From: Patescibacteria group bacterium
GTDB taxonomy: Bacteria > Patescibacteriota > Patescibacteriia > Patescibacteriales > UBA12465
Direction of reading: 5' to 3'
DNA: 64,000 bases
NCBI GenBank assembly: GCA_041651195.1
Contig: JBAZJR010000004.1
Location: 26,848 to 90,847 of the forward strand
Shown: in pieces, positions 26,301 through 60,338 of the stretch
How the letters are laid out: the number at the start of each line of letters is the position of its first letter
How positions within the stretch are numbered: position 1 is the first letter of the stretch
The notes under the pieces: model-generated
Seen by the model: only the letters and a program-made list of their open reading frames with translations
Databases searched by the model: none
Told to the model about the DNA's origin: nothing
Program-made: the position numbers and the translations under genes

Positions 26301-26489
26301 GATGAGACCGGAGAAATAGCCTGTAATGACGACCTTCTTACCGCTGAAAGCACTCGGTGGTTTACCGGGCAGATTAAAGGCGCAGCGGGGAATCCTTATT
26401 GCGCGACTGCGGCTTGTTCTGTCCAGATAAATCCTAATTCTTGCCGTTTAGGCGGGAGCTTGACTGGGGCTTGTTATATTCATGATTAG
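20388..26489 (+). CDS. Giant (2033 aa) cysteine-rich surface protein: the same VirB2/TrbC-like N-module, IPT/TIG repeats, Cys-rich modules, an Ig-like segment and two FN3 domains
   Basis: The start is GTG and there is no in-frame ATG near the N-terminus. The N-terminal ~125 aa are paralogous to the previous gene. There are four IPT/TIG-like units (ITEISPLGG..ITIIGKNFG, ISSFYPTSGNAGQYVTIRGNLFG, CKIEPERGPADTPVTLWGEYFG). FN3-like units (VRVTWSAAAS..YKVYY and LRFSWANN..YRLYHG) lie near the C-terminus. Confidence 0.9.
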   Translation: MPQKILKHLLSFILLAAGFLVAPAVLAQGFGVNEVNNGLSGSLTATDPRTVAGRVINIILGFLGVIAVGLISYAGFLWLTSNGNEEKIETAKKILRNGIIGLVIILASWGIAMFILTRFGGTGGNSAGGCYEGEVASCGCGGAMVCSGGSFGSCIGSDCGGNNGGGPESCDSSLSAGCQAADQICAPGKYCDNNDCGCKPKGNLGDPCNIDATGGTCTPDNNRCADYLSCNPQSCLCYGPPVITEISPLGGFCQENANKSCFQDSDCATVCDLTTPNGTAHNFITIIGKNFGAYSSSSQVIFAASTTPVIGNEPSSLNSACLDTWRDDQIVIAVPAGVSTGPIKVVNKDGLSDTTGNDYGPSIADFRVNGINRPGLCYLDPSRGVLTTAVGYQGINLYTGQAYFGNYENNVKALDSQFVDSSGLSGTSTTPNIRPGDSGSFIQSELNGLPEKSNYLRFTKESEPGAGPYISSFYPTSGNAGQYVTIRGNLFGGARGTSRVYFDDIEATYDFPEMCLNSVWKNNQIVVKVPAGLADGYHTIKLTIGATTVDTQKLNPNSFRFDKNLELRSSLCKIEPERGPADTPVTLWGEYFGRLGSEGLVKFNYDKSATGTIEKDGRANMIETTVPAGAITGPVRVINNSVWGNEMNFSIGECMVDSDCGTQVCCPKNTYRSGRCAQALADCFIDIPNSVFEWSFNTSFNASDDPTTASCAGLASYFGACQTGSACPNVPGSCSPYAGGGQKIVADCDYSCAAFTGCGLLGAACHYDSTIDKCVQNEAVGNCDLAKTITYERDGQDYQVPAVCNVAKNWEITLNSSCPDGWTKSSGNKCVDLNSTCAVCAAGLACEKIQPTDTVGHCVSAKVCPSGAVCADNFQDGQDKCVVPDKATCDCCCTIGQDARDCCAPLKCEGSCGADTGKTNNVTLGRCGGCKAAGDTPAERDAACNCSGHSGQFCEINDPRFPDGVCSDCASLSGQDCSDHSSACCLDARKTAATADDICRGGDGQALTTDKNNPDFGYCAYYKCESLDSVPPGDPTKCASSTPFKIGNYPSVAACAADCLDNDPCSGITDITKCQEHSNCCFDAKITGAAKCRLGAPIAGSSSNGYCAYYDCATDPVGNSYCASSTPIKSGTYSSLESCDKYCANPPSGPGLSCNGLTSDTCASEKCNFPNFACLLDSGQLGVLPPDCGACCCQPGATTTSPFDPNLIWQCLPDKGNCTGANRGLYCGCSSDEQCGLNTIGTIGCGSDTCCQARPEITATSPAHLADKVCRNALVKVDFNSNMDVTSFNGNVLLLEEREYDSGVCPAGTFIAQGDSLADILAQKNKVWLARLLDKLQAGIVRLTRYFSDQAFANPPSDSKLYCSVPGTASGENNGDYSSLIFAPQKLLSPATNYYLVVKGDENLNSKTGVLSAVAIGFNGKGYGNDANLSSYILSKDLKFNNQSYINAQIIKFSTLSDQSPSAGICAVDEVFVNPSSYLFKTTENSLDENDAAPGHRTFDTIADRDRVFTAYAYSADKQLLQPVTGYFWRWNLTVDNPDIAAINPIPGLPANQAFVYARGGITDGETKIKATIDMSSFLDGCAGGKCSCQDALCSNRCCNAYSGGDGFNQSSNLYVFLCNNPWPSVGPNGEWLPWADNSVNCLSGSGDCSSYNYKFYYCRDAGGNGTLDDLPAISDPAVVRGTSANLLCSSDRTPCSVLNGACGPDQNGDGTADGFCLWDVLKESYFFRAGLPAGGEVTGASDVQTSGAVRVTWSAAASQASAYKVYYLGSSQGNMASREVKASEACTTVGTLHNCQTVITGLKNNIPYVFKVTVLSVNRTETQLTGEKTATPTDKTVPAAPLGLLAAPAGDQLRFSWANNTDDASFYRLYHGFSAGQHGESFDSAVGATSLVYPLDSLIVGRHYFALSALDSYKNESTKSSDFNLERQSANSLTIGNRSYRLAADNWWYAAPNLSDLSDDRACLVELSVADETGEIACNDDLLTAESTRWFTGQIKGAAGNPYCATAACSVQINPNSCRLGGSLTGACYIHD
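23313..23816 (+). repeat. Tandem protein-level repeat (2 units of about 70-84 aa) inside the giant protein
   Basis: Unit 1 (23313-23564) reads DCSDHSSACCLDA...GYCAYYKCES...KCASSTPFKIGNYPSVAACAADC. Unit 2 (23604-23816) reads KCQEHSNCCFDAK...GYCAYYDCAT...YCASSTPIKSGTYSSLESCDKYC. Confidence 0.75.
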
Positions 26490-29400: not shown

Positions 29401-29843
29401 GTTATACCACTTCCACCGCTTATTGTATCTGTACGCCAGACACCTGCGCGTCTACGGGCCGTGTCTGCGGCAGCGGCTATCCGAACGGCTGCGCTGGCGC
29501 TCCTAATGCCGGCACTCTATATTGCGGCGCTACATCCTCTACCGCTTCTTGCAATTATGGCACTTGTTACGGGACTAAGACCAGGACCTGTTCGGCATCC
29601 GGCACCTGGAATGCCTGGGGAGCCTGTTCTGTGCAGGCGCCGACCTGTGCTTCTTTGAAGTATGTCTGCGGCAGCAAGAATAGCGATGGTTGCGGCGGGT
29701 TGATAAATTGTGGCGCCGATTCCCGGACCAGTCGCTTATGTACAGTATCGGGTAGTAACGGCTATAAAGGGTATTATTTAGATACTTGCGTAAAGGGCGC
29801 TTGGGTCAATGGGATTAACTGTCTGCCGCTTAAGGTAAAATAG
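26499..29843 (+). CDS. Large (1114 aa) secreted cysteine-rich protein with Ig-like region and CGDG-type Cys-rich repeats
   Basis: It has an N-terminal signal peptide (..KISLAAEP). CGDG motifs are present (YCGDGVKQTPN..YEDCD and GGYCGDGYCQ..ETCDNCAADC), and the C-terminal third is dense in Cys. It starts 9 nt after the previous stop. Confidence 0.9.
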   Translation: MGNNRFKLIFALIFFVCLLSAIKISLAAEPYSAPANSSDAIAVRIIPNPNHYSIARWYESQGFQGSPQSLLVDGYEAIRDGRTVYVNAANIDQATRTIYTNIYLISYNQDSAPNTVDILGQIIAHWKFNNNLVESSPATCSVSALNCAADTDCPQGSACLLSGGSNAYSISGSNAYNFCLLKQPKNCLVDADCPTDYFCNSLKARVTRDLKRVGRLEEMKEALANFKKTNQYYPRLAAGSYLAGNSISTWPSWSQELLSNLALPQSFVDPVNRLGACPGYDQKTCWSVAAKKFFNNQSNFGAVQLNLPPDSYAFAYATDATGSKYSLCAVLESRMPSLAYRFSPNDPADSACAILGIGGDGQAANTAPQLVNQFLVGEVGREFNGYIQVKDNENNPLIWTLDTTGTDWASWSAAPTLKDTSSFGQKKVSAARAGAKGDYSLNLGVNDGKLTVSIPLSIKILSSMINIEADDAAYIANPIDRFSYSFSFSGRGVSASSYSLIPDPANPFDLLADLGPSARTVSLIGPDRYRISYSGFIPKSRTISQDLDFKYNLRVTDSLGNSANKGFAIQVKAEKPLLDFNCSDAARVGIFYSCTLGALQQGNHNLKYSATNLPAGFKLSAGTSQFLQGSSAYATASRATITATNEYGAAVSRDFALKVNTYCGDGVKQTPNTEGRGGLYNDGYEDCDIQDSVASGISFSADSQYGCQTTDSSARPFPILTNDQCVFKSPTQGGGYCGDGYCQAKINNAVRETCDNCAADCCQAQAVNNNCTPQCAGKSCGDDGCGGSCGLCASSQTCINGHCIGAQCSASTQCNDNNPCTDETCSGGVCSYSHSHNSFKTDCTYGTYYDYFALSGGTVVATSSDHNSRCFIKGTKSCSQGVFGDCITQDPRAGYCTDYDKRCEGETYNATKLGINLASVCNGTCVNTGNDDFCLDGGGNRIDSKPCSVLFNNNRFSGNAPCDKDCTGYTTSTAYCICTPDTCASTGRVCGSGYPNGCAGAPNAGTLYCGATSSTASCNYGTCYGTKTRTCSASGTWNAWGACSVQAPTCASLKYVCGSKNSDGCGGLINCGADSRTSRLCTVSGSNGYKGYYLDTCVKGAWVNGINCLPLKVK

Positions 29844-46413: not shown

Positions 46414-46453
46414 CCAGGAAGAATCAGTCTAATCAGATAAATATCTTGATCAT

Positions 46454-48286
46454 ATGAGAGATGTGGCGGTATTTGCCCAGACAACTTATCGGAACGAATC
46501 GAAAAGATTCGGCATCAAAACCGACGACCGTCGCCGGCATATGTATTTAGTGGGGAAAACCGGCATGGGCAAGTCGACGATCCTGGAGAATATGATCGTT
46601 GACGATATACGCGCCGGCCACGGTGTCGCGGTAGTTGATCCGCATGGCGATTTGGCGGAAAAGATCATTGAATTTATTCCAGCTAACCGGATTAATGATG
46701 TCGTCTATTTTAATCCTTCGGATATAAACTACCCGATCGCTTTTAATGTGGTCGAACAGGTGGAGCCGCATCTGCGCCATCTAGTCGCTTCCGGATTGAT
46801 CGGGGTTTTTCAGAAACTTTGGGCTGATTCCTGGGGACCGCGTTTAGAATATATCTTGCGTAATGCGATCCTGGCGATTTTAGATTTCCCAGGCTCTACT
46901 CTCATGGGCGTCGTCCGTATGCTCTCAGATAAGAATTACCGCAAACGGGTCGTAGCCAATATTAAAGATCCGGTCGTCAAGGCCTTTTGGGAAAAAGAAT
47001 TTTCTGGTTACGCTGATAAGTTCGCCTCCGAAGCGGTGTCGCCTATTCAGAATAAGGTCGGACAATTTTTGTCCAATTCTTTGATGCGTAATATTATCGG
47101 CCAAGTAAAATCAGCCATTGATATCCGCGACATTATGGATAATGGGAAGATTATCATTATGAATTTATCCAAAGGCCGTATCGGCGAGGATAATTCGGCT
47201 CTCTTGGGCGCGATGATGATCACTAAGATCCAGCTCGCGGCGATGAGCCGGGTAGACGTGCCGGAGCAGGAACGGCGTGATTTTTATTTGTATATCGATG
47301 AATTCCAAAATTTTTCCACGGACAGTTTTGCTAATATCTTATCAGAAGCCCGTAAATATCGATTGAATCTGATCTTGGCGCATCAGTATATAGAACAATT
47401 AAGCGAGAAAGTAAAGCCGGCCGTTTTCGGCAATGTCGGCACGATGGTCGTCTTCCGGGTCGGCGCGGCTGACGCCGAGGAGCTGGTGAAAGAATTTACC
47501 CCGACTTTTACGGAGGAAGACTTGGTCAATTTGCCAAAATATGAAATGTATCTGAAATTGATGATCGATGGCATCTCTTCTTCGCCGTTTTCGGCTGCCG
47601 GTTTGCCGCCGCTCGCCAAAGAAGAGGAAACTGGCAATACCCAGAAAGTTATTGATTATTCCCGGCAAAAGTATGCCTCGGATCGCGCTTCCGTTGAAGA
47701 AAAGATTATGAGTTGGCATGAGAATGATGGCGGAGAACTTGCCCCGAGCGAAATTTCTTCAGTTAAAATAGCCAAGGTTATTACGGTGCCGCCGCCGAGC
47801 CGTCCTCCCTTGCCGAAAACCGTCCCCGCAACTCCAGCCGCCCGGCCGAAGCCGGCGGAGCCAGCCAGCCAGCCGAGCTTTACGCCCGCGCCGGCCAAAT
47901 CTAAAATAAAAAACGGCTATCCAGCGGTTTGTAATAGTTGCGGGCAGGAAACTATGACGGTTTTCCAGCCGGATGGTATCCGGCCGGTCTATTGCCGCGA
48001 CTGTTTGAGTAAAAAAAAAGAAGAAAAACGCCTTGAACTCGAAGCTCGTCAGCAAGCCAAGGAAAGAGAAAAGAGAGAATTCTTAGATATCGCTCCGCCG
48101 GCGTCTTCGTCGCCTACTCCCACTTTATCCCTAAATGATCTGAATCGCGTCGCGCCTCGAGATTTTCGGGGTCGGGAGATGAAGCTCAAGCCCGCCGCCC
48201 GCCCAGCCGCCGATACCGATGCCCACTACGAAGAAAAGGAACTAAAGGAGGGAGAGGCGGTCATCATTACCAATAATAATTTTTAG
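46454..48286 (+). CDS. Soluble T4SS coupling-protein-like (TraD/VirD4/HerA-class) P-loop ATPase with C-terminal Pro-rich linker and CxxC-x17-CxxC zinc ribbon
   Basis: It has Walker A GKTGMGKST, Walker B FYLYIDEFQNF and LILAHQYIEQL. There is no N-terminal TM. The C-terminus has CNSC-17 aa-CRDC followed by a K/E-rich segment. Confidence 0.85.
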   Translation: MRDVAVFAQTTYRNESKRFGIKTDDRRRHMYLVGKTGMGKSTILENMIVDDIRAGHGVAVVDPHGDLAEKIIEFIPANRINDVVYFNPSDINYPIAFNVVEQVEPHLRHLVASGLIGVFQKLWADSWGPRLEYILRNAILAILDFPGSTLMGVVRMLSDKNYRKRVVANIKDPVVKAFWEKEFSGYADKFASEAVSPIQNKVGQFLSNSLMRNIIGQVKSAIDIRDIMDNGKIIIMNLSKGRIGEDNSALLGAMMITKIQLAAMSRVDVPEQERRDFYLYIDEFQNFSTDSFANILSEARKYRLNLILAHQYIEQLSEKVKPAVFGNVGTMVVFRVGAADAEELVKEFTPTFTEEDLVNLPKYEMYLKLMIDGISSSPFSAAGLPPLAKEEETGNTQKVIDYSRQKYASDRASVEEKIMSWHENDGGELAPSEISSVKIAKVITVPPPSRPPLPKTVPATPAARPKPAEPASQPSFTPAPAKSKIKNGYPAVCNSCGQETMTVFQPDGIRPVYCRDCLSKKKEEKRLELEARQQAKEREKREFLDIAPPASSSPTPTLSLNDLNRVAPRDFRGREMKLKPAARPAADTDAHYEEKELKEGEAVIITNNNF

Positions 48287-48288
48287 TT

Positions 48289-48861
48289 ATGTATTTATTT
48301 TTCGATACGGAAACGACCGGCTTGCCCCGGAATTATCAAGCGCCGCTTGATGATTTTTTAAATTGGCCGCGGATCGTCCAGATCGCTTGGAGCTTATATG
48401 ATGCGGCGGGTAATCACTGGGAAAGTTTCAGCTATATCATTAAACCAGACGGCTTTGTCATCCCGTCGGAAGCGACCAAGATCCATCGGATATCGCAAGA
48501 ACGAGCCCTGGCGGAAGGCGTTAATCTGCGCTTAGCTTTGGAGCATTTTTTACGCGATGTCAGGAGCGCCAAGCAGCTAGTTGCCCATAACATCGATTTT
48601 GATGAGAAGATCGTCGGCGCTGAATTATTGCGAGAAAGATTAGACAATCCTTTGCCCGCCGCCAGCAAGATTTGTACGATGAAAAGCAGCGTCCAATATT
48701 GCCGGCTCCCGACAGCGCGCGGCGGCTATAAATGGCCGAACTTATCTGAACTTTATAATTGTCTTTTCGCTACCGGGTTCGCGGAGGCGCATGATGCCGT
48801 CTTCGACGTCAAGGCTTGCGCGGATTGCTTTTTTGAGCTAAAACGGAAAGGTATCGTTTAA
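48289..48861 (+). CDS. DEDDh 3'-5' exonuclease (DnaQ/epsilon-like)
   Basis: The Exo motifs are FFDTETTGL (Exo I), VAHNIDFDEKI (Exo II) and AHDAVFDV (Exo III). It starts 2 nt after the previous stop. Confidence 0.85.
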   Translation: MYLFFDTETTGLPRNYQAPLDDFLNWPRIVQIAWSLYDAAGNHWESFSYIIKPDGFVIPSEATKIHRISQERALAEGVNLRLALEHFLRDVRSAKQLVAHNIDFDEKIVGAELLRERLDNPLPAASKICTMKSSVQYCRLPTARGGYKWPNLSELYNCLFATGFAEAHDAVFDVKACADCFFELKRKGIV

Positions 48862-48864
48862 TTT

Positions 48865-50460
48865 ATGGCGCAGCCTATCAATTACCTGAAAATCGGCAAA
48901 GCGACCGATCTCGCCGGGCGGGATCGCCTAATTTATCGTCTTTTGGAAATTTTTCCGGGATTTTTATCGATTTTTTTGCTTCTTATCCTGACGATCCTGT
49001 CTTATTTCAAGCCGGTCCTCGTGGCCTATTTTATTATCGCTTTTGACGTTTATTGGCTTCTTTTGGTCATCTATATGGCCATTTTTTTGATTACTTCTTA
49101 TTATCGATTGCAGGCGGGCTTAAAGACCGATTGGCGGCAAAAATGCGCGGATCTGAAAAGCGAAAGCTTCGACCGGTCAATTCTCCCGCCGACCTCCTTG
49201 GCGCGGCAAGGAGTCTCAGCCGACGATCTGTGGCAGCTTATTATCTTGCCGAATGTCCATGAAGGGCCGGAGATCCTGCGGACTTGCCTCGCTTCTTTAG
49301 TAGATGACGGTTTTCCGACTGACCGGATGATCGTCGCCTTAGCGATCGAAGAGCGCGCGGGCGAAGCGGCGCGCGTGAAGGCAGAAACTATGCGGCAGGA
49401 ATTCGGCGCCCAGTTCGGCCGTTTTATCATCACCATCCATCCCGATACCCTGCCCGGCGAGTTGAAAGGGAAAGGAGCTAACCAGGCCTGGTCGGCCGGC
49501 ATCGTTAAGAGCCAGATCATCGATCAGGAAAAAATGGATTATGACAAGATCCTGGTCAGCGTTTTCGATATCGATACCGTCGTGCGGCCCGGTTATTTTT
49601 TCGCCCTGACTTATAAATTTTTGACCGTGCCCGACCCGTATCATACCAGCTATCAGCCGGTGCCGGTCTATCATAATAATATCTGGGACGCGCCCTTCTT
49701 TTCTCGCGTCGCGGCCTCTTCTAATACCTTCTGGCAGATGATCATGCAGATCAGGCAGGAAAGCCTGGTTACCTATTCCTCGCACTCCATGACCTGGCGG
49801 GCTTTAGTAGATATCGGTTTCTGGTCGACACAGAATGTTTCGGAAGATTCTCGGATCTTTTGGCATTGCCTCATGCATTATAACGGCCATTATCGGGTTG
49901 AACCGGTTTATTTCGAATTATCGATGGATGTGACGCACGACGAAAGCCTTTGGAAAACCGCGAAAAATCTTTATCGCCAGCAAAGGCGTTGGGCTTGGGG
50001 CGGCGAGAACATCCCTTATTTATTGTTTAACGCGGGTAAGCGTTGGCAGAATCAGGGATTAGACAAGGGCCGGATCATCAGCCATATTTTTATCCAGATT
50101 TATGGTTTTAACGCTTGGGCGACCAACGCCCTAATCATTGCCGTCATCGGCTGGTTGCCGATGCTTCTCGGCGGCGACCGCTTTAATTCTACGGTTTTGT
50201 CCGGCAATCTGCCTTCGATCACCCAGAATCTGATGAATATCGCGATGATCGGCTTAGTCTTATCCGCGACTATCTCCGCCCTCCTATTGCCGAAGAAGCC
50301 AGCTAAATATCATTTTTGGAAGAAGGCCCTGATGAGTCTGGAATGGCTGGCCGTGCCGGTGACTATTATCATTTTCGGCTCTATTCCTTGCTTAGAAGCG
50401 CAAATCCGCCTGATGTTCGGCAAATATATGGGTTTTTGGTGGACGCCGAAGAAACGTTGA
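48865..50460 (+). CDS. Membrane-embedded family 2 glycosyltransferase (processive synthase-like)
   Basis: It has N- and C-terminal TMs, a GT-A core with SVFDIDTV (DxD) and the QQRRWAWG (QxxRW) motif. Confidence 0.85.
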   Translation: MAQPINYLKIGKATDLAGRDRLIYRLLEIFPGFLSIFLLLILTILSYFKPVLVAYFIIAFDVYWLLLVIYMAIFLITSYYRLQAGLKTDWRQKCADLKSESFDRSILPPTSLARQGVSADDLWQLIILPNVHEGPEILRTCLASLVDDGFPTDRMIVALAIEERAGEAARVKAETMRQEFGAQFGRFIITIHPDTLPGELKGKGANQAWSAGIVKSQIIDQEKMDYDKILVSVFDIDTVVRPGYFFALTYKFLTVPDPYHTSYQPVPVYHNNIWDAPFFSRVAASSNTFWQMIMQIRQESLVTYSSHSMTWRALVDIGFWSTQNVSEDSRIFWHCLMHYNGHYRVEPVYFELSMDVTHDESLWKTAKNLYRQQRRWAWGGENIPYLLFNAGKRWQNQGLDKGRIISHIFIQIYGFNAWATNALIIAVIGWLPMLLGGDRFNSTVLSGNLPSITQNLMNIAMIGLVLSATISALLLPKKPAKYHFWKKALMSLEWLAVPVTIIIFGSIPCLEAQIRLMFGKYMGFWWTPKKR

Positions 50461-51015: not shown

Positions 51016-51087
51016 AGCGGGTGAGCGGAATCGGACCGCCTTCCTCAGCTTGGGAAGCTGATGTAATAACCATTATACGACACCCGC
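51016..51087 (-). tRNA. tRNA-Gly (anticodon CCC)
   Basis: A hand-folded cloverleaf gives acceptor GCGGGTG/CACCCGC, anticodon arm TCAGC-TTCCCAA-GCTGA and T arm GGCGG-TCCGATT-CCGCT. No CCA is encoded. It lies 5 nt from tRNA-Thr. Confidence 0.85.
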
Positions 51088-51140
51088 GTATTCGTGTAGA
51101 TATTATAGAATTATTAAATCATTTTAGTCAATCAGTATTT

Positions 51141-52670
51141 ATGCCCATGATCCTTAAACGAAGCAAATCCCTAGTCTTTTTAATCGGATTTTTTTCTTTT
51201 ATCGTCCCGTTCGCGGCTGGCGCGGCCGTGTCTGAATTGGAGATAAATTATGACCCGGCCGCCTTTACGGCGCCGGCGACTTTATCGGTCGCGACCAGCT
51301 CGCCGGAGAGCATGGCCGCTAGCTTGCCGTGGGAATGGCAAGCTCTGACCACGATTTACGAATATTCTTTCGCGACGAACGGCTTTTATGATCCGAGCCG
51401 GCCATTGCAGATCAAGATTTCTTATCCCGACGCGGATAAATATTATAAGCAGATTTTTATCTATGATGCTTGGAGCAAGGTCTGGCGGCCGATTCCGACC
51501 GCTGACGAGCCTGAGACGGGCTATGTCACCGCGACTACTGACTCGACCGCGGGCCGCTTGATTCTTTTGAGCAATCCAGACCTGATGACAGTCGGCTCGG
51601 CCAGCTGGTACGCTTTTAAGAACGGGCTCTTCGCCGCTTCACCGGATTTCGCCAAAGGCTCTGTTTTACGGGTCCATAACTTGGCTAACGGAAAATCAGT
51701 AGACGTAACCGTCAATGATTGGGGGCCGGATCGCGGCCTGCATCCAGATCGCGTCATCGATCTTGATAAAGTCGCTTTCAGCCGGATCGCTTCTCCGGCG
51801 GCAGGCTTGATTTCCGTCAAAGTGGAGCCCTTGAAGATCGTTGTTCCGGAATCTAAAAAAGCGGTGCCGCAGTCGACCGGCGAATTGACGCTGACCGCCT
51901 CTTCCGCCGTCTTGGTTTGGGAGAAGAACGGGCAAGTGCTCTGGGGCAAGGATGAAGAAAAAGTATCCCCTTTGGCTAGCTTGACTAAATTAGTCGCCGC
52001 TAAGATATTTATGGAGACTAAGCCGGATCTGAAGAAAGTCGTCAGCTATAAGAAGGCGGACGAAGAATATAATAATAAGTATTGCCCGCCCGGCGAATCC
52101 GCCCGCCTGAGAGTGAAAGACGGAGAGACTATGACTATAGAAGACCTGCTTTATAGCGCCTTGGTCGGCTCAGCCAACAACGCGGTAGAAAGCTTGGTCC
52201 GAGTCAGCGGCTTGAACCGCGCGGCTTTCATCGCGCGGATGAACGAGGCGGTCAAGAAATGGGGCGCTTCTTCAACCCGCTTCATAGAACCATCCGGCTT
52301 ATCTCCGGACAATGTGAGTTCTCCTTTGGATTATGCTATAATAACTAAAGAAGTATTTACTGATGCTCTCTTGAAAAAGATCAGTACGACCCAGCGCTAT
52401 ACTTTTAAGACCCGGAATACTAAAAAAGCGCATACGTTGACCAACACCAATCAGTTATTGAAGACCAATACTTATCCGATCATCGGTTCCAAGACCGGTT
52501 ATCTGGATGAAGCGGGTTATTGCCTGATGACGCGGGTGGCGACGGCGCAAGGCAACCTAATCGCGATCAATTTCGGGTCCACTAGCAAGGCTAATAATTT
52601 TTTGGATAATGAGCAGATCATCCGTTTCGGCCAGCGCCTCCTCCAGAATCTGCTCGCTAAGGATAAATAG
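51141..52670 (+). CDS. Fusion of an RlpA-like double-psi beta-barrel domain and an S11 (PBP5-type) D-alanyl-D-alanine carboxypeptidase
   Basis: It has a signal peptide and a DPBB region (GSASWYAF..LRVHNLANGKSVDVTVNDWGP..VIDLDKVAF). The S11 motifs are SLTK (SxxK), SAN (SxN) and SKTG (KTG). The ATG at 51141 is used because the track's upstream extension overlaps the tRNAs. Confidence 0.85.
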   Translation: MPMILKRSKSLVFLIGFFSFIVPFAAGAAVSELEINYDPAAFTAPATLSVATSSPESMAASLPWEWQALTTIYEYSFATNGFYDPSRPLQIKISYPDADKYYKQIFIYDAWSKVWRPIPTADEPETGYVTATTDSTAGRLILLSNPDLMTVGSASWYAFKNGLFAASPDFAKGSVLRVHNLANGKSVDVTVNDWGPDRGLHPDRVIDLDKVAFSRIASPAAGLISVKVEPLKIVVPESKKAVPQSTGELTLTASSAVLVWEKNGQVLWGKDEEKVSPLASLTKLVAAKIFMETKPDLKKVVSYKKADEEYNNKYCPPGESARLRVKDGETMTIEDLLYSALVGSANNAVESLVRVSGLNRAAFIARMNEAVKKWGASSTRFIEPSGLSPDNVSSPLDYAIITKEVFTDALLKKISTTQRYTFKTRNTKKAHTLTNTNQLLKTNTYPIIGSKTGYLDEAGYCLMTRVATAQGNLIAINFGSTSKANNFLDNEQIIRFGQRLLQNLLAKDK

Positions 52671-55539: not shown

Positions 55540-56070
55540 ATGAAATGGATCGGCATCAGCGGCGGCTGGCGGCAAATCAATGAGACAATTGAAAATGATG
55601 TTCGTCAGACGGTAGCGAAAATTATGGAGCGCGGGGACGGCATCGTTTCCGGCGGCGCCTTAAATGTTGATTCGGCCGCCCTCGACGAAGCTTTGAAGCA
55701 TGACGCCTTGGCCCAGCGGATCAAGATATTCCTGCCGACTACTTTAGAAAAATTGTCTGAACATTATCGGAAGCACGCGCGGTTGGGAACGATCACGGCC
55801 GCCCAGGCGGAAAACTTGATCAAGCAGTTGAGCGCATTGCGGCAGATAAATAGTTCGGCCTTGATAGAAAATCCAGATATCAATTTTACCGAGGAAAACA
55901 AAAAAGCCAAATATTATGAAAGAAATGCTAAGGTAGTAGAGGCTTCGGATGAATTGGTGGCCTTCTGTGTCAGGACTCAGGCAAGCGAAGGTTTAGGAAC
56001 GGCGGACACTATCCGCAAAGCAGCAGCAAAGGGGATCCCGATCGATTTGCATTCTTATGATCTTACTTAA
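55540..56070 (+). CDS. SLOG/DprA-like Rossmann-fold protein (function unknown)
   Basis: GIVSGGALNVDSAALDEAL resembles the SGGAxGxD motif of DprA/SLOG proteins. The C-terminal GLGTADTIRKAAAKGIPI resembles the second conserved patch. The assignment is tentative. Confidence 0.5.
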   Translation: MKWIGISGGWRQINETIENDVRQTVAKIMERGDGIVSGGALNVDSAALDEALKHDALAQRIKIFLPTTLEKLSEHYRKHARLGTITAAQAENLIKQLSALRQINSSALIENPDINFTEENKKAKYYERNAKVVEASDELVAFCVRTQASEGLGTADTIRKAAAKGIPIDLHSYDLT

Positions 56071-56130: not shown

Positions 56131-58518
56131 ATGTCCAAACAAAAAACTATCTTAGCAGTTTTAGGTGGAGTTTTTTTGGTGGTTATCGCCGCCGCCCTGG
56201 TTTATTGGTTCTATTTTTTGCCCCAGACGGGCAAAGATATGAGCCCGGCGGCCGGTCAGCCTAACCGTCCAGCGACAGCCGATCAAGCGACAAACGCGCC
56301 CGCGGCGGCTAATGAACCGAATATCGGTTTTGTCCCGGCCTATCGGGAAGAACGGGTGCCGCTCGATCAAGTCGCTAATTATCAGGCGCTTAAGTCTAAA
56401 TATGGTTTGAATTTTTCGGCCGCCCAGGAGAAGTATTTAGAAGAAAACCGGTTTTTATTGATCGATCATGATCAGGTTCCTTTTCTGACCGCTCTAGCGG
56501 GGCCTAATTTTGACCAATGGCTGAAAGATTCTGATGCTCTCGGCGGCGGCTCTATCTTTGATCGTAAGCCGGAAGATACGGTCCTGGTGACCCCGGATCT
56601 GGTTCTGCACGCCTACCATAAATATTTTGAATTGACTCTAGAAAAATTGGAACAGCATGAGCTGAGCCAGGCCCTGGGCGATTTCCTGTCCGGTTTGCAC
56701 GCTAACCTGGCGGACGCGGCCGCCCAGAATAGCGGCACTATCAAAGAACGCTATCAAAGCCTAGAAGCGCAGATCCTCCTCGCCCGCGTTTTATTCGAAA
56801 ATAAGAATGCGGCCAAGCCGAGCTATTTTTCCAGCCCGGACGAGGAACAAAAATATAATGATCAGGATAAGGATATCGATTCTTTAGCGAATGCCGAGAA
56901 GATTTTAAATAAGTATGCCAAAGATCTACCCGCTGATTTAACGGATAAAATCAGGATTGATCTAGCCGCGATTTATTCGGCCGACGCTATCGGTCAGTCG
57001 CCGCTCTTCAAGCAATACGACGATCAGATCAAGACCGATTATACGCAGTTTACGCCGCGCAGCCATTACGCTAAGAATTCTGTCCTGCGCGCCTATTTCC
57101 GGGCGATGATGTATCTGGGCCGGAGTAGTTATCTGTTAAAAAGTGACCTGGGTATCGCCGATACTAACTTGCTCGTCAAGCAGATGGCGCGGAGTCGTGG
57201 GGAAGCCCCCGCTCCTCTGGAAGCCTGGAAGAAAATCATGGCCGTCACCGGCTTTTATGCCGGCGAGAGCGATGACCTGTCTTATCTGGAATGGCAAAAT
57301 TTTAAGAGGAGCATCTTGGGCGAGGACATCAGCTCTGACGCGGATTTGATCGCACCGGCCAATATCAGTAAATTAGCTCAGAATCTTGATCAGCTTCGTT
57401 TGCCGCAGATATTATCCGATGTGATTGTCGATGAAAATATGGCCGCCCGGACCAAGGCAGATCTGTTGCGCCAGACGCTGGGCTTCCGGATTTTCGGCCA
57501 GAAATTTACTTATGACGCCTGGATTTTAAACAGCCTGACGGCTGGTGAGGAAAAGACAGATGCTAAGCTGCCCTCTACTCCCTCCGCCTTATTTATTCCC
57601 GCGGCCTTCGGCGATGGGCAAGCGCAAAGCCATACGCAACAATTCTTGAATCAGGACACCAAGTTTACGGCCGCTGAAATTACCGGTTTTTTGAGTAAAT
57701 TAGAACAGAAGCGAGCGGATATCGCTAAGGTTAAGAATGAAGATTGGTTCCATTCCATGGGCAGCGCTTGGCTTTATATCTTGGGCTCGTTGACGCATGA
57801 TTATGGCGCGCATTATCCGCTGTATATGCAGACGAGACCATTCTTAGATAAGCAGATTCAGTCCTTCCTCGGTTCTTATGCCGAGCTTAAGCACGATACG
57901 CTACTATACGCGAAACAGAGTTACGCCGAATTAGGCGCGGGCGGCAATGATCGCCCTATCCCACCGGTGGTCAAAGGTTTCGTGGAACCGAACCTGGAGT
58001 TTTGGACGAGATTTAACAATCTGCTCAGCCGGACTGACCAGCTATTTCGGGATAATGACCTCTTCAAAGGTGATGCCGCGGCTGATCGCCTGCATCAATT
58101 CCAGCAGATTTCTGCTTTGTATGCGGGCATCGCCGAGAAAGAGCTGCGCGGCCAGGCCATCAGCGATGATGATTATGAAAGTTTAAGGACAACTAAATTA
58201 TCATTTATGGCCCAGCCATTCGAAGCAGTCGATCCGGATGAGACTTCCGGTCAGACGGCCCTGATCGCCGATATCCATACCGACGCCGTGCGCAGCCAGA
58301 TACTTTACGAAGCGACGGCCAAGCCTTATCTGATGTTAGCGATTGTCGGTAATGAGGGATCGCCGCGCGTGGCCGCGGGACTGGTCTATAATCATTATGA
58401 ATTAACTGATCCGATCGGACGGCGGTTGACCGATGAGGATTGGCGGAAGAGAGTCTATCAAGATAATCACCTCTTGCCCGCCAAGAACTTTTGGTATCAG
58501 TCATTGCTCGTAAAATGA
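56131..58518 (+). CDS. Large N-terminally anchored extracytoplasmic protein, DUF3160-like
   Basis: It has an N-terminal TM. The overall size and segments such as YTQFTPRSHYAKN and YAELKHDTLLYAKQSYAE match my recollection of DUF3160. This has not been verified. Confidence 0.6.
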   Translation: MSKQKTILAVLGGVFLVVIAAALVYWFYFLPQTGKDMSPAAGQPNRPATADQATNAPAAANEPNIGFVPAYREERVPLDQVANYQALKSKYGLNFSAAQEKYLEENRFLLIDHDQVPFLTALAGPNFDQWLKDSDALGGGSIFDRKPEDTVLVTPDLVLHAYHKYFELTLEKLEQHELSQALGDFLSGLHANLADAAAQNSGTIKERYQSLEAQILLARVLFENKNAAKPSYFSSPDEEQKYNDQDKDIDSLANAEKILNKYAKDLPADLTDKIRIDLAAIYSADAIGQSPLFKQYDDQIKTDYTQFTPRSHYAKNSVLRAYFRAMMYLGRSSYLLKSDLGIADTNLLVKQMARSRGEAPAPLEAWKKIMAVTGFYAGESDDLSYLEWQNFKRSILGEDISSDADLIAPANISKLAQNLDQLRLPQILSDVIVDENMAARTKADLLRQTLGFRIFGQKFTYDAWILNSLTAGEEKTDAKLPSTPSALFIPAAFGDGQAQSHTQQFLNQDTKFTAAEITGFLSKLEQKRADIAKVKNEDWFHSMGSAWLYILGSLTHDYGAHYPLYMQTRPFLDKQIQSFLGSYAELKHDTLLYAKQSYAELGAGGNDRPIPPVVKGFVEPNLEFWTRFNNLLSRTDQLFRDNDLFKGDAAADRLHQFQQISALYAGIAEKELRGQAISDDDYESLRTTKLSFMAQPFEAVDPDETSGQTALIADIHTDAVRSQILYEATAKPYLMLAIVGNEGSPRVAAGLVYNHYELTDPIGRRLTDEDWRKRVYQDNHLLPAKNFWYQSLLVK

Positions 58519-60338
58519 AACCAGCGCGGTGGATCTTAATATCAGCCGCCCTGGTTTTGCTTCTTCTGGCCGTTTATTTTATCCGAGGAAATCGGCCGCT
58601 TCAAGATGAGACCCTGACAGCCGGCCCGGATCAGCTAGAGTTATCGGAAAATGTCATGATTATTAGATCGGCTGCCGCGGAACCGATCGGGAAACAGTAT
58701 TCAGACCCCTCTTTATTTCTTTCGCCGATCAAGCAGGCGCCGCAAACTGCGGTTGCCGGAGTTGTGACCGGCTTGATCGTTCCTCATCATCTTTTAGCTA
58801 AGGATTTGGTGGCCCAGGCTTTTGCCGCTGCCGCCCCGGGCCGCTATCGGCGGATCATCTTGATGAGTCCGGATCATTTTGACGCCGGCCGGACCGCGAT
58901 TTCGGTAACCGAGCGTAATTTCTCTACGGTTTTTGGCGAAGTGCAAACGGCGGCAGAAATTTCCCGCCAACTCAAGAAATTATCTTTTGTTAGCGAAGGT
59001 GATTTTTTTTATCGCGAGCATGGCTTGCAAGCGGTATTGCCGTTTATCAAATATTATTTTCCGGCGGCGGAAATAGTCGCCCTGACTTTTAAGCCGACTG
59101 TTTCTCAGGCGGAGCTAGATCAGATAATCGCGATCTTGGCTAAGGAGTTGCCCGCTGATTCCTTGGTTATTCAGAGTACGGATTTTTCCCATTATCTGAC
59201 ACCAGCGCAAGCGGCGGAGCGAGACGCGCAAACTATCGCGGCCTTGTCCGCTGGCGATCCGGCGCGAATGTTAAATCTCAATCAGCCGGACAATATCGAT
59301 TCGCTCGCCGCCCAATATGTCCAAGCGCGCTTGCAGGCCGACCTGTTTGGCGCGCCTCTTAAGGTCTTAGATCATAAGAATTCCCAGGATTATACAACCG
59401 AAGTCGTCACTTCATCCACCAGTTATCTGGCGGCGGCCTATACTCAGCCTGGTATTTTACCGGTGAAAGTTTCGTTGCGCGAGCCAGGCACGGCGGAATT
59501 AATTTTGGTCGGCGATATTATGTTATCGCGCTATATCGGGGAGATGATGGCTCGGCGGCAAGATTATGATTTTCCTTTCGCACTGATCAAACCGTATCTG
59601 GCCGGCGCCGACCTGGTCTTCGGTAATTTAGAGGGGCCGATTTCCGACCAAGGGGTATCAGGCGGCAAAATTTATTCTTTCCGCGCTGATCCGGCGGCGG
59701 CGCGCGGCTTAAAAGAAGCTGGGTTTACGGTCTTGGGGGTGGCGAATAACCACATTTTTGATTATGGGCCAGCCGCTTTTTTAGATACTTTGGATAATCT
59801 AAAAAAGGTCGGGCTAGCTTATGCCGGCGGCGGCCATGATTTTTCTGAGGCGCATCAGGGAGCCACCCAAGAAATCAACGGTATCAAGATCATCTTCTTG
59901 GCCTACACCGACCTTTTGCCGGAGAGTTTAGCCGCCAGTGAGAAGCGGGCCGGTTTTGCTTATTTAGATTTAAAACAGATGGCCGAAGACATCCGAGCGG
60001 CCAAGGAAAAATCGGATCTGGTTATCGTGTCTTTTCATTGGGGGCGGGAATATGAAACCAAGCATAATGCCCGCCAAGCCGCCGTGGCCGAGGCGGCAAT
60101 CGCCGCTGGCGCGTCGCTGATCATCGGACACCATCCGCATGTCGTCCAGGAGGTAGCCGTAAAAGATGGGATTACGGTCGCCTATAGCCTGGGCAATTTT
60201 ATCTTTGATCAGAATTTTTCACCCGAGACAAAAGCGGGTCTGACTCTGAAAGTTTCCATTAAGGAAAAAAAGATAATCAGCGTCGAACCGCAGCCGGTCA
60301 AATTTAATCATTATTTCCAGCCGCAGATAAAAGACTGA
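58515..60338 (+). CDS. Fusion of a MEMO1/AmmeMemoRadiSam-B-like domain and a CapA-type metallophosphatase domain
   Basis: It has an N-terminal TM and a MEMO-like half (GLIVPHHLLA, ILMSPDHF, STDFSHY). The CapA-like half has LILVGDIMLSR, FGNLEGPIS, VANNHIFDYG, SFHWGREY and GHHPHVVQ. The ATG at 58515 overlaps the upstream TGA (ATGA). Confidence 0.8.
   Translation: MKPARWILISAALVLLLLAVYFIRGNRPLQDETLTAGPDQLELSENVMIIRSAAAEPIGKQYSDPSLFLSPIKQAPQTAVAGVVTGLIVPHHLLAKDLVAQAFAAAAPGRYRRIILMSPDHFDAGRTAISVTERNFSTVFGEVQTAAEISRQLKKLSFVSEGDFFYREHGLQAVLPFIKYYFPAAEIVALTFKPTVSQAELDQIIAILAKELPADSLVIQSTDFSHYLTPAQAAERDAQTIAALSAGDPARMLNLNQPDNIDSLAAQYVQARLQADLFGAPLKVLDHKNSQDYTTEVVTSSTSYLAAAYTQPGILPVKVSLREPGTAELILVGDIMLSRYIGEMMARRQDYDFPFALIKPYLAGADLVFGNLEGPISDQGVSGGKIYSFRADPAAARGLKEAGFTVLGVANNHIFDYGPAAFLDTLDNLKKVGLAYAGGGHDFSEAHQGATQEINGIKIIFLAYTDLLPESLAASEKRAGFAYLDLKQMAEDIRAAKEKSDLVIVSFHWGREYETKHNARQAAVAEAAIAAGASLIIGHHPHVVQEVAVKDGITVAYSLGNFIFDQNFSPETKAGLTLKVSIKEKKIISVEPQPVKFNHYFQPQIKD

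What the first reader, a model, noticed from the sequence alone, without database searches (positions are those of the whole stretch)
46454..48861. Soluble T4SS-coupling-protein-like ATPase with a zinc ribbon, translationally packed with a DEDDh exonuclease
Seen: the ATPase has a TraD/VirD4/HerA-type P-loop core (GKTGMGKST, FYLYIDEFQNF, LILAHQYIEQL). It lacks the N-terminal TM helices of canonical coupling proteins. Its C-terminus has a Pro-rich linker (PPPSRPPLPKTVPATPAARPKPAEP...), CNSC-17 residues-CRDC and a Lys/Glu-rich helix. From memory, a CxxC-x17-CxxC domain has been defined as a small zinc-binding family. A DnaQ-like exonuclease starts 2 nt after its stop and a GT2 synthase 3 nt after that. 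Inference: this may be a DNA-translocating motor plus exonuclease pair. It could serve DNA uptake or nucleotide scavenging (fitting the neighbouring nrd genes), a T4SS-like export route together with the VirB2-like anchored proteins 26 kb upstream, or a HerA-nuclease-type defence pair.
Basis: partly seen in the sequence, partly recalled or inferred. Interest (0 to 1): 0.55.

Follow-up and report, generated by a model that had tools for sequence, protein, structure and literature searches.

The report
Orphan VirD4-like ATPase beside unrelated exonuclease
The ATPase is an ordinary member of a very widespread, still uncharacterised family of secretion-type (VirD4-like) motor proteins of Patescibacteria. 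The exonuclease next to it is a neighbour only in one sub-lineage, so the two are probably not a dedicated motor-nuclease machine.

Summary
Three tightly packed + strand genes encode a 610-aa TM-less VirD4/TrwB-like P-loop ATPase with a C-terminal CxxC-x17-CxxC zinc ribbon, a 190-aa DEDDh exonuclease and a multi-TM GT2 synthase.

The proposed motor-plus-exonuclease pair is not supported. In 72 related loci the exonuclease follows the ATPase in only 19. All 19 lie in one clade that shares a ~16-kb housekeeping block, and a nested subclade has lost the exonuclease. Spacers of 0-3 nt also separate unrelated genes elsewhere in the window.

The ATPase belongs to the near-universal "orphan T4CP homologue" family of Patescibacteria, already reported in 2,918 of 3,035 genomes and rarely near virB4.

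The family's conserved partner is a single-pass membrane protein (PF26449), not a nuclease:
- It sits directly upstream in 37 of 72 loci.
- It is fused to the ATPase in 70 of the 150 best cluster representatives.
- Its predicted fold matches only VirB4/TrwK.

The window encodes no PF26449 homologue, and neither do the ~14 kb of contig flanks that could be read. The apparent fused orthologue in Southlakia epibionticum is dispensable in Tn-seq.

Verdict: a known kind with unknown function, and modest interest.

The parts
46454..48286 (+). Gene for the 610-aa VirD4/TrwB-like (T4CP-like) P-loop ATPase with a C-terminal zinc ribbon. It has no TM segment.
   Evidence: ORF. Pfam PF10412, PF02534, PF12696, PF01935 and PF23477. 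NCBIfam TIGR04272. Closest solved sequences are TrwB 1e9r (E 1.6e-6) and, with the family profile, DotL 6sz9. No TM segment. More than 8000 Patescibacteria homologues.
46454..47722 (+). Conserved ATPase core (aa 1-423): RecA-like nucleotide-binding domain with an all-helical insertion (aa ~99-229).
   Evidence: It is 50-80 % identical across 44 relatives, with about 100 invariant positions. In the AF2 model, helices 99-229 lie between strands 83-86 and 233-237 (low-confidence model).
46553..46576 (+). Walker A, GKTGMGKS (aa 34-41).
   Evidence: G34, K35, G37, G39 and K40 are invariant.
47285..47305 (+). Walker B, YLYIDEF (aa 278-284).
   Evidence: D282 and E283 are invariant.
47786..47914 (+). 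Pro-rich, poorly conserved linker (aa 445-487).
   Evidence: Length and sequence vary among relatives. pLDDT is below 50.
47915..48019 (+). CxxC-x17-CxxC treble-clef/zinc-ribbon domain (aa 488-522; C493, C496, C514, C517).
   Evidence: PF23477 at 1.5e-12 and TIGR04272 at 6.7e-13. The four Cys are invariant. pLDDT is about 90 with two beta-hairpins. The motif is present in 61 of 72 close relatives and in 0 of 70 fused forms.
48020..48283 (+). Lys/Glu-rich helix (the predicted helix spans aa 515-545 and so begins inside the zinc-ribbon feature) followed by a tail. The tail carries two conserved short motifs: LSLNDL (aa ~557-563) and the terminal GEAVIITNNNF.
   Evidence: Helix 515-545 in the model. 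The 'ISLxxL' and terminal 'GExIxF' motifs recur in distant relatives.
48289..48861 (+). Gene for a 190-aa stand-alone DEDDh 3'-5' exonuclease. It is a lineage-specific neighbour and not a conserved partner.
   Evidence: PF00929 at 1.6e-10. PADLOC generic DEDDh profile at 1.8e-27. D6, E8, D105, H168 and D173 are invariant. All dnaQ/epsilon equivalog models score far below cut-off. It is adjacent to the ATPase in only 19 of 72 loci.
48865..50460 (+). Gene for a multi-TM GT2 processive glycosyltransferase. It neighbours the ATPase more widely than the exonuclease does.
   Evidence: PF13632 at 9.8e-09. Five hydrophobic segments. It lies downstream of the ATPase in 35 of 80 loci, including two distant ones, L049 and L052.

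Best explanation
What it is. The 610-aa protein is the catalytic subunit of a Patescibacteria-wide, chromosomally encoded, VirD4-like ('orphan T4CP') ATPase family.

How it most likely works (inferred from family knowledge). It forms an ATP-driven ring of the FtsK/HerA/VirD4 class at the inner face of the membrane. It engages a nucleic-acid or protein substrate through its helical insertion and its zinc-ribbon tail. It then hands the substrate to, or pulls it from, an envelope channel of the T4SS type.

The family's usual partner. In most lineages the ATPase is tethered by a single-pass membrane protein (PF26449, about 430-550 aa). That protein is encoded immediately upstream or fused to the ATPase N-terminus, and its predicted fold resembles VirB4/TrwK. 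The window's sub-lineage has lost this neighbour. It has also lost the small TM protein that replaces the neighbour in sister genomes. What remains is a free-standing ATPase.

The exonuclease. It is an intact, independently acting housekeeping DEDDh 3'-5' exonuclease. It sits between the ATPase and the GT2 gene because of one clade-specific rearrangement. The 2-3 nt spacers reflect genome compaction and probable co-transcription, not a dedicated complex.

Shown here:
- family membership;
- motif integrity;
- absence of a TM segment;
- the zinc-ribbon domain;
- the phyletic pattern of the neighbours;
- the PF26449-ATPase fusions.

Inferred:
- ring formation;
- membrane recruitment;
- the nature of the substrate;
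- the link to the T4SS.

Confidence is about 0.85-0.9 for 'ordinary family member with no conserved exonuclease partnership'. It is about 0.4 for the T4SS-associated translocation mechanism. The overall figure of 0.6 is a compromise between the two.
For: Family.
- Pfam TrwB_AAD_bind, T4SS-DNA_transf and TraG-D_C all score above their gathering cut-offs.
- TrwB and DotL are the only significant solved relatives.
- The family profile aligns over about 300 columns with the VirD4-like TrsK of pGO1, but only over the Walker A of the VirB4-like TrsE.

Breadth.
- More than 8000 close homologues, all from Patescibacteria.
- At least 594 GTDB species.
- 7,234 50 %-cluster representatives at E<=1e-30.
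- The literature reports 5,713 VirD4-type T4CP homologues in 2,918 of 3,035 Patescibacteria genomes, only 148 of them near virB4 (PMC12102498).

Partner.
- PF26449 is directly upstream in 37 of 72 loci, mostly with gaps of 2-40 nt.
- 70 of the 150 best representatives are PF26449-ATPase fusions.
- The AF2 model of PF26449 (pLDDT 74.5) has TrwK/VirB4 chains as its 12 best PDB matches (prob 0.98-1.0, E 4e-4 to 4e-3), followed by unrelated hits at E>0.01.

Exonuclease not a partner.
- It is present at +1 in 19 of 72 loci, all in a single clade, with a nested loss.
- Spacers of 0-3 nt also join unrelated genes in this window, for example pilin-like/RuvB at 9960/9964, bPH_2/QueA at 12179, and 61832/61836.

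T4SS parts. Pilin-domain surface proteins lie in the window.
Against: - There is no VirB4, VirB6, VirB8 or relaxase gene in the window or in the ~14 kb of readable flanks.
- Family members are rarely near virB4.
- The apparent orthologue in S. epibionticum, SEML1_0293, is non-essential, whereas the T4SS genes are essential. This argues against an obligatory role in that T4SS.
- SEML1_0293 is 921 aa with the ATPase domain at 402-719, and it lies downstream of the same Sigma70_r4/HARE-HTH gene. Its orthology rests on those two facts, not on its sequence.
- PF26449 is absent from this window, so how this particular ATPase would reach the membrane is unknown.
- The VirB4-like fold of PF26449 rests on a predicted model with low TM-scores (0.27-0.35). 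No sequence-level support was found.
- The AF2 model of the ATPase itself was too poor (pLDDT 62) for a fold comparison.
- Within its clade the ATPase-exonuclease order is stable and tightly spaced: 12 of 19 gaps are <=10 nt. A clade-specific functional link therefore cannot be excluded.
Confidence: 0.6

Rival explanations
1. First reader's model. The ATPase is a DNA-translocating motor that feeds DNA to the adjacent DEDDh exonuclease. The pair serves DNA uptake or nucleotide scavenging and supplies the neighbouring anaerobic ribonucleotide reductase pathway.
For: - The genes are tightly packed and on the same strand in the order nrdR-nrdD-nrdG-ATPase-exonuclease.
- This order is conserved in 19 loci, mostly with short gaps.
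- Patescibacteria lack de novo nucleotide synthesis and are naturally competent (PMC10633639).
- There is an architectural precedent. CedD of Sulfolobales has a TM segment, a VirB4-NTD-like domain and an ATPase, and it is required for DNA import (bioRxiv 10.1101/2024.09.27.615246).
Against: - The exonuclease and nrd neighbours are restricted to one clade, and a nested subclade has lost the exonuclease.
- In the majority of lineages the neighbours are PF26449, a sigma-like protein, SecDF, Pgk and similar housekeeping genes.
- Tight spacing is genome-wide.
- As summarised in a review, a comEC mutation that abolishes transformation did not affect viability in S. epibionticum, so uptake is not an essential nucleotide source there (PMC12857230).
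- The match to the CedD model is only 27 bits against a cut-off of 600.
Confidence: 0.12
2. The pair is a HerA/nuclease-type anti-phage defence module.
For: - PADLOC hits for the ATPase: mad8 at 8e-17 and HerA profiles down to 7e-11.
- PADLOC hits for the exonuclease: the Cas-associated DEDDh profile at 1.8e-27 and PDC-S48.
Against: - The hits are to generic P-loop and DEDDh profiles.
- The family is near-universal in the phylum and 50-80 % identical across classes, unlike patchy, fast-evolving defence genes.
- The context is cell division, nrd, Sec and glycolysis genes, not a defence island.
- The adjacency is not conserved.
- DUF87 is barely above its Pfam cut-off, at 26.2 against 23.2 bits.
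Confidence: 0.03
3. The ATPase is an FtsK-like chromosome or septum DNA translocase that belongs to the cell-division cluster in which it sits (FtsA, FtsZ ... FtsB, Dac, FtsE, FtsX).
For: - It is embedded between division genes in the window and in 17-28 related loci.
- T4CPs and FtsK share the same ATPase superfamily (established knowledge).
Against: - The division context is confined to one clade.
- A bona fide FtsK with 4TM, alpha, motor and gamma domains exists and is essential in the patescibacterium S. epibionticum, whereas the apparent orthologue of this ATPase there is dispensable.
- For the window protein, the Pfam scan (E<=0.01) returned no FtsK_SpoIIIE hit.
Confidence: 0.07
4. It is a canonical coupling protein of a conjugative or integrative element that transfers DNA through a relaxase-dependent T4SS.
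For: T4CP Pfam domains, including the TraM-recognition region. T4SS-pilin-domain proteins lie 20-29 kb upstream.
Against: - No relaxase, VirB4 or VirB6 gene in the window or readable flanks.
- No N-terminal TM segment.
- All TraD/VirD4 equivalog models score far below cut-off, for example 47.8 against 366.
- Chromosomal housekeeping synteny is conserved across species.
- Relaxases are rare in the phylum: 109 in 103 of 3,035 genomes.
- GC content is unremarkable across the region.
Confidence: 0.03

Closest known systems
VirD4/TraD/TrwB type IV coupling proteins (T4CP; Pfam PF10412, PF02534, PF12696; structures TrwB 1e9r and DotL 6sz9)
   Same: - Same ATPase superfamily and the best sequence match over the whole core.
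- Walker A and B motifs, and an apparent all-helical insertion in the nucleotide-binding domain.
- A variable C-terminal extension that could act as an adaptor, as the TraD tail does.
   Different: - No N-terminal TM anchor in cis.
- No linkage to a relaxase or to VirB4.
- Chromosomal, and highly conserved across a phylum.
- The C-terminal extension is a zinc ribbon plus conserved short motifs instead of an acidic TraM-binding tail.
- Scores are far below every curated TraD/VirD4 equivalog threshold.
Orphan T4CP homologues of Patescibacteria (Quinonero-Coronel et al. 2025, PMC12102498), including S. epibionticum SEML1_0293 (Wang et al. 2023, PMC10633639)
   Same: This is the family to which the window protein belongs. 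It is VirD4-type, present in about 96 % of genomes and usually far from virB4. Its function is unknown, and the authors raise possible exaptation.
   Different: - The window protein is the split, zinc-ribbon-bearing form without an adjacent membrane partner.
- SEML1_0293 is the long form (921 aa), and the fused forms examined here lack the zinc ribbon.
- The passages of those papers retrieved by term search do not mention the PF26449 partner or fusion, its VirB4-like predicted fold, or the zinc-ribbon subfamily. The papers were not read in full.
VirB4/TrwK (and split VirB4 systems such as TrsD+TrsE of pGO1)
   Same: - Taken together, PF26449 plus the ATPase reproduce the VirB4 layout: a membrane-proximal N-terminal module followed by a RecA-type ATPase.
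- PF26449's predicted fold hits only TrwK/VirB4.
- pGO1 likewise encodes an N-terminal-like TrsD directly upstream of its VirB4-like ATPase.
   Different: - The ATPase domain is sequence-wise VirD4-like, not VirB4-like.
- There is no detectable sequence similarity of PF26449 to VirB4 or TrsD.
- The PF26449 gene is absent from this window.
CedD/CedB DNA-import ATPases of Sulfolobales
   Same: The architecture is TM helix, then a VirB4-NTD-like domain, then an FtsK/HerA-superfamily ATPase. It works in DNA import rather than export. This shows that such an architecture need not mean conjugative export.
   Different: It is archaeal, in the HerA/VirB4 clade, and UV-induced. Sequence similarity is confined to the Walker A region, at 27 bits against a cut-off of 600.
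DnaQ/epsilon and other stand-alone DEDDh exonucleases (ExoX, RNase T, PolC exonuclease domain)
   Same: All three Exo motifs with the DEDDh histidine are present. The best NCBIfam similarities are to epsilon-like models.
   Different: - At 190 aa it ends right after Exo III, so it has no epsilon C-terminal polymerase-binding extension.
- It scores 16-37 bits against cut-offs of 71-1043.
- It has no solved homologue detectable by sequence.
- There is no Pol III gene context in the window.

Membership tests
VirD4/TraD/TrwB type IV coupling protein | FtsK/HerA-superfamily nucleotide-binding domain with Walker A and B motifs that matches T4CP-specific profiles | tested here: met
   PF10412 scores 48.2 bits (cut-off 20.5), PF02534 25.3 (20.1) and PF12696 25.6 (22). 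TrwB and DotL are the only significant PDB sequence hits. The motifs are invariant.
VirD4/TraD/TrwB type IV coupling protein | All-alpha domain inserted in the nucleotide-binding domain | tested here: inconclusive
   Predicted helices at 99-229 lie between core strands, and the PF10412 alignment spans residues 23-344. However, the model has pLDDT 62 and the fold search was uninformative.
VirD4/TraD/TrwB type IV coupling protein | N-terminal transmembrane anchor | tested here: not met
   No hydrophobic segment reaches TM level, and the gene starts 40 nt after nrdG. In relatives a separate or fused single-pass PF26449 protein may supply the anchor.
VirD4/TraD/TrwB type IV coupling protein | Genetic linkage to a T4SS (VirB4, VirB6 ...) and/or a relaxase | tested here: not met
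   None is present in the 64-kb window or the ~14 kb of readable flanks. Family-wide, only 148 of 5,713 homologues lie near virB4. The whole genome could not be searched.
VirD4/TraD/TrwB type IV coupling protein | Reaches curated equivalog or subfamily thresholds (TraD, VirD4-like CD1115) | tested here: not met
   SXT_TraD scores 47.8 against 366, CD1115 38.5 against 250 and TOL_TraD 32.2 against 647.
VirD4/TraD/TrwB type IV coupling protein | Hexameric, DNA-stimulated ATPase that recruits substrates | not testable with these tools
   This needs biochemistry or multimer modelling.
CxxC-x17-CxxC zinc-binding domain (TIGR04272 / PF23477) | Profile match above cut-off with four conserved Cys at CxxC-x17-CxxC spacing | tested here: met
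   TIGR04272 scores 48.1 bits (cut-off 36) and PF23477 47.4 (cut-off 27). C493, C496, C514 and C517 are invariant. Zinc binding has been shown for two archaeal members (PMC12704099). It was not shown here.
HerA-nuclease pair (repair or defence) | Conserved operonic pairing of the ATPase with its nuclease | tested here: not met
   The exonuclease is adjacent in 19 of 72 loci, all in a single clade, with a nested loss.
HerA-nuclease pair (repair or defence) | HerA-type ATPase (HAS barrel plus HerA core) rather than a T4CP type | tested here: not met
   DUF87 scores only 26.2 bits against 23.2. T4CP profiles score higher and cover the whole core. The HAS barrel was not assessed structurally.
DnaQ / Pol III epsilon (for the exonuclease) | DEDDh catalytic motifs | tested here: met
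   D6 and E8, H100-N101-x-x-F104-D105, and H168-x4-D173 are all invariant in 120 homologues.
DnaQ / Pol III epsilon (for the exonuclease) | Equivalog-level similarity, a C-terminal polymerase or clamp-binding extension, and Pol III context | tested here: not met
   The best epsilon model scores 37.3 bits against 245. The protein ends 17 residues after Exo III. No Pol III gene is in the window. A proofreading role is not excluded.
VirB4 (for the composite PF26449 + ATPase found in relatives) | Membrane-proximal N-terminal domain followed by a RecA ATPase | tested here: inconclusive
   PF26449-ATPase fusions make up 70 of 150 representatives. The PF26449 model hits only TrwK/VirB4, but the TM-scores are 0.27-0.35, the aligned region is not reported, there is no sequence support, and the ATPase part is VirD4-like. 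The PF26449 gene is not present in this window.

The most novel reading that the evidence does not exclude
The phylum-wide 'orphan T4CP' of Patescibacteria may be neither a coupling protein in the conjugative sense nor a relic. It may be a third kind of T4SS-type motor: a bipartite or fused machine made of a VirB4-N-terminal-like membrane module (PF26449) and a VirD4-like ATPase. One large branch adds a zinc-ribbon adaptor tail. Its role would be core and non-conjugative, for example loading or importing nucleic acid or protein at the epibiont-host interface. The window's clade would then be a remodelled, membrane-partner-free version that has become operonically coupled to a DEDDh exonuclease which trims the translocated DNA.
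Probability: 0.2. Interest if true: 0.65.

Novelty: new member of a known kind. Interest (0 to 1): 0.3.

Why it matters
For the finding as stated, little changes. The gene is already annotated in public records as a T4SS DNA-binding / CxxC-x17-CxxC protein. Its family has been counted across Patescibacteria, and the exonuclease link is a local accident of gene order.

The family itself is worth attention, for four reasons:
- It is among the most conserved Patescibacteria-enriched proteins.
- It has no assigned role.
- Its real conserved partner, a membrane protein of unknown function with a VirB4-like predicted fold that is often fused to it, gives a concrete and testable handle.
- A genetically tractable host, S. 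epibionticum, carries what appears to be a dispensable orthologue, so phenotypes such as transformation, host attachment and T4SS pilus output can be measured directly.

Tried and rejected
1. AF2 model of the ATPase. The 66-sequence alignment had only 74-85 % identity. It gave pLDDT 62, and Foldseek against the PDB returned only noise. It was not used for classification.
2. PF26449 as a degenerate ATPase paralogue. hhalign against the ATPase profile gave probability 0.5 %, so this was rejected.
3. The small TM protein of sister genomes as a truncated PF26449. hhalign gave probability 0.4 %, so this was rejected.
4. Sequence-level link of PF26449 to VirB4, TrsD or any solved protein. There were no hits with three different profiles or with the pGO1 TrsD sequence. 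NCBIfam had nothing, and the local Pfam copy lacks PF26449.
5. PF26449 or the small TM gene elsewhere in the window or the contig flanks. Nothing was found.
There was no overlap, but only the top 120 of each list are visible, so this is inconclusive.
7. Names or taxonomy for the fused representatives. None is on record.
8. Promoter and terminator scan. Nothing decisive. The best + strand promoter-like site is upstream of nrdR.
9. PDB sequence search for the exonuclease. No hit.
10. Literature search for PF26449 / DUF8128. No paper was found. The name DUF8128 is from memory and is unverified.

Full report
OBSERVATION

They are separated by TAG-tt-ATG and TAA-ttt-ATG.

The 610-aa protein:
- It matches the T4CP profiles TrwB_AAD_bind (9.6e-13, residues 23-344), T4SS-DNA_transf and TraG-D_C above their Pfam cut-offs. 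DUF87/HerA is only just above its cut-off.
- Its only significant solved relatives by sequence are TrwB and, with a family profile, DotL.
- It has no hydrophobic segment of TM strength, and it starts 40 nt after nrdG.
- Residues 488-522 match the curated CxxC-x17-CxxC domain (TIGR04272 6.7e-13; Pfam zf_Tbcl_2 1.5e-12). The four Cys are invariant. Zinc binding has been shown for two archaeal members of that domain family (PMC12704099).

The 190-aa protein is an RNase_T-fold DEDDh exonuclease. D6, E8, D105, H168 and D173 are invariant in 120 homologues. The third protein is a multi-TM GT2. The description is therefore correct in every checkable detail.

ORGANISM AND CONTEXT

All close homologues come from Patescibacteria (CPR) MAGs, largely Falkowbacteria-like.

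The window is an ordinary chromosomal stretch. It encodes RmuC, RadC, an AddA-like helicase-nuclease, RuvB, QueA, HisRS, RelA/SpoT, ClpP, SecDF, prepilin peptidase, FtsA, FtsZ, NrdR/D/G, FtsB, a DD-carboxypeptidase and FtsEX.

It contains no VirB4, VirB6 or relaxase gene. Neither does the ~14 kb of the contig that could be read beyond the window. It does contain two giant surface proteins with an N-terminal T4SS_pilin domain. VirB2-like pilins have already been described for the patescibacterial T4SS.

IS THE ATPase-EXONUCLEASE ADJACENCY CONSERVED?

I fetched 80 loci from different GTDB species that encode a relative of the ATPase (48-96 % identity). I then mapped all window neighbours onto them by tblastn, clustered their ORFs, and searched them with an HMM of the exonuclease.
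- In the 72 loci with a complete ATPase gene, the exonuclease lies at +1 in 19.
- It is found nowhere else within +-8 kb in the other 53 (one marginal HMM hit at E 0.0034, 12.9 bits, is not credible).
- The 19 loci also share the whole FtsA-FtsZ-NrdRDG...GT2-FtsB-Dac-FtsEX block.

A neighbour-joining tree of the ATPase cores shows that they form one clade. Inside it, a subclade (L012, L018, L019, L022, L025, L027, L039) has ATPase directly followed by GT2, so the exonuclease was lost again. The nrd genes are confined to the same clade.

GT2 is a broader neighbour than the exonuclease, at 35 of 80 loci.

Spacers of 0-3 nt are common in this window between unrelated genes. Examples are pilin-like/RuvB at 9960/9964, bPH_2/QueA at 12179, and 61832/61836.

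WHAT THE FAMILY IS

The family is huge and unusually conserved:
- more than 8000 homologues at 68-85 % identity among the listed hits in the 90 % database;
- at least 594 species;
- 7,234 50 %-cluster representatives at E<=1e-30;
- about 100 invariant positions across 44 relatives that span several CPR classes.

It has been noted before. Quinonero-Coronel et al. 2025 counted 5,713 VirD4-type T4CP homologues in 2,918 of 3,035 Patescibacteria genomes. Only 148 were near virB4, and relaxases were almost absent. The authors suggested that the gene may have been exapted.

THE REAL CONSERVED PARTNER

The most frequent neighbour is a 415-570-aa protein with one N-terminal TM helix.
- It lies directly upstream in 37 of 72 loci, mostly 2-40 nt away. 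It is usually preceded by a Sigma70_r4+HARE-HTH protein and SecDF.
- The protein database labels it PF26449. The local Pfam and NCBIfam copies have no model for it.
- Of the 150 best 50 %-cluster representatives of the ATPase, 70 carry this module fused to the N-terminus of the ATPase domain. This is a Rosetta-stone link.

An AF2 model of the module (pLDDT 74.5, pTM 0.68) retrieves TrwK/VirB4 of plasmid R388 as its 12 best PDB matches (probability 0.98-1.0). Everything below that is unrelated. The TM-scores are low (0.27-0.35), the aligned region is not reported, and no sequence method confirms the link. I therefore treat 'VirB4-N-terminal-like' as probable, not shown.

The layout recalls two known cases:
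- split VirB4 systems, such as TrsD directly upstream of the VirB4-like TrsE in pGO1;
- the archaeal DNA-import ATPase CedD, which has a TM segment, a VirB4-NTD-like domain and an ATPase.

The ATPase part itself remains VirD4-like. It aligns over about 300 columns to pGO1 TrsK but only over the Walker A of TrsE.

In the window's clade, PF26449 is replaced upstream by NrdRDG plus a small (79-143 aa) single-TM protein, seen in 22 loci. The window and its three nearest relatives (L002, L004, L005) lack even that small protein. HMMs of both proteins find nothing in the window. Whether PF26449 is encoded elsewhere in this genome could not be tested.

THE ZINC RIBBON

It is present in 61 of 72 close relatives. 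None of the 70 fused forms has it, and only 11 of the 80 unfused representatives do. It therefore marks one large branch of the split form.

Behind it, two short motifs recur in distant relatives: 'ISLxxL' and a terminal 'GExIxF'. These look like docking peptides. Their partners are unknown.

EXPERIMENTAL ANCHOR

In the Tn-seq data for Southlakia epibionticum (PMC10633639 supplement):
- SEML1_0293 is 921 aa with PF10412 at residues 402-719, which indicates a long, fused-type form. It lies directly downstream of a Sigma70_r4+HARE-HTH gene, the same synteny as in my loci. It is classed non-essential at all time points, with read counts falling from 5817 to 1372.
- A second T4CP-like paralogue, SEML1_0142, is essential.
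- A canonical FtsK, SEML1_0096, is also essential.
- The T4SS genes are essential.

Orthology of SEML1_0293 is inferred from its domain coordinates and synteny, not from its sequence.

MECHANISM

The best-supported reading has four parts:
- The protein is a ring-forming, ATP-driven VirD4-class motor subunit that normally works at the membrane together with PF26449.
- Its helical insertion and zinc-ribbon tail bind the cargo or an adaptor.
- It serves a T4SS-type channel. Export or import cannot be decided.
- The exonuclease is an independent housekeeping DEDDh enzyme.

The exonuclease could still be a proofreading or 3'-end-trimming nuclease. It fails every curated epsilon threshold and has no C-terminal extension, and its substrate is unknown.

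Rival readings are listed separately with their evidence: a DNA-uptake motor plus nuclease, a defence pair, an FtsK-like role, and a conjugative T4CP. None is favoured by the comparative data. A clade-specific cooperation between the ATPase and the exonuclease cannot be excluded.

NOVELTY AND SCORE

The gene is an annotated member of a documented, uncharacterised family. The proposed system (motor plus exonuclease) is not a conserved entity. I rate it 'new member of a known kind', with interest 0.3.

The side result is the PF26449 partner and fusion, its VirB4-like predicted fold, and the zinc-ribbon branch. It was not mentioned in the passages of the papers retrieved by term search, which were not read in full. 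It is what makes the family, rather than this locus, worth a follow-up.

LIMITS

- The 80 loci are the best 80 of at least 594 matches, so close relatives are over-represented.
- ORFs in the loci were called with a simple greedy caller.
- The tree is a neighbour-joining tree without support values.
- The ATPase structural model failed.
- No whole genome could be searched.

Noticed in passing
window 17645-20347 and 20388-26489 (also 26499-29843): Two giant proteins (900 and 2033 aa) carry an N-terminal T4SS_pilin (VirB2-like, PF18895) domain followed by Big_5, TIG and fn3 repeats. A third large ORF (1114 aa) has a weak He_PIG Ig hit. No VirB4 gene lies nearby.
   Followed up: partly
L023 3825-5291, L024 6477-7970 and 35 other loci; not in the window: A single-pass membrane protein (PF26449 in the database's precomputed Pfam) is the most conserved neighbour of the ATPase family. 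It is fused to the ATPase in 70 of 150 representatives. Its AF2 model matches only TrwK/VirB4.
   Followed up: yes
L001 7707-7976 and 21 other loci; the position corresponds to window 46414-46453: Sister genomes encode a small (79-143 aa) protein with one strong C-terminal TM helix between nrdG and the ATPase. The window, L002, L004 and L005 lack it. It has no family assignment, and hhalign shows no link to PF26449.
   Followed up: partly
L023 2475-3704 and 28 other loci; S. epibionticum SEML1_0294: A Sigma70_r4 + HARE-HTH protein precedes PF26449 and the ATPase in 29 of 72 loci. It is essential in S. epibionticum. This gives a conserved triad of unknown meaning.
   Followed up: no
L037 10115-11605, L048 9809-11302, L063 8295-9713, L064 8874-10358; representatives P0334 and P0345: Some lineages carry a second, adjacent paralogous ATPase of about 496 aa without a zinc ribbon (same strand in L037, L048 and L063; opposite strand in L064). 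Two ~1200-aa representatives show two matched ATPase stretches each. P0334 also carries a PF26449-like module. P0345 had no PF26449 hit.
   Followed up: no
window 48122-48142 and 48251-48283 (aa ~557-563 and 600-610 of the ATPase): Two short motifs behind the zinc ribbon, 'ISLxxL' and a terminal 'GExIxF', recur in distant relatives despite otherwise unalignable tails. They are possible docking peptides.
   Followed up: partly
window 51021-52670: A fusion of a DPBB_1 (RlpA-like lytic transglycosylase) domain with a Peptidase_S11 D-Ala-D-Ala carboxypeptidase.
   Followed up: no
window 58491-60338: A Memo-like domain is fused to a PGA_cap (capsule synthesis) domain. It overlaps the end of a DUF3160 protein gene (56131-58518).
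   Followed up: no
window 55540-56070: A 176-aa protein has only a weak DNA_processg_A (DprA) hit in the precomputed annotation. It may be a truncated or divergent DprA.
   Followed up: no
L038, L044, L045, L047, L050, L054, L059, L067 (downstream of the ATPase): In Paceibacteria-like loci the ATPase is followed by Pgk, a DHH/DHHA1 phosphoesterase and RNase H. This is another nuclease-flavoured but non-universal neighbourhood.
   Followed up: no
L082 13594-14703 (contig beyond the window's 3' end): A serine recombinase (Recombinase + Zn_ribbon_recom) lies at the end of one assembly's contig, after a 674-aa protein with no family and a GT2.
   Followed up: no
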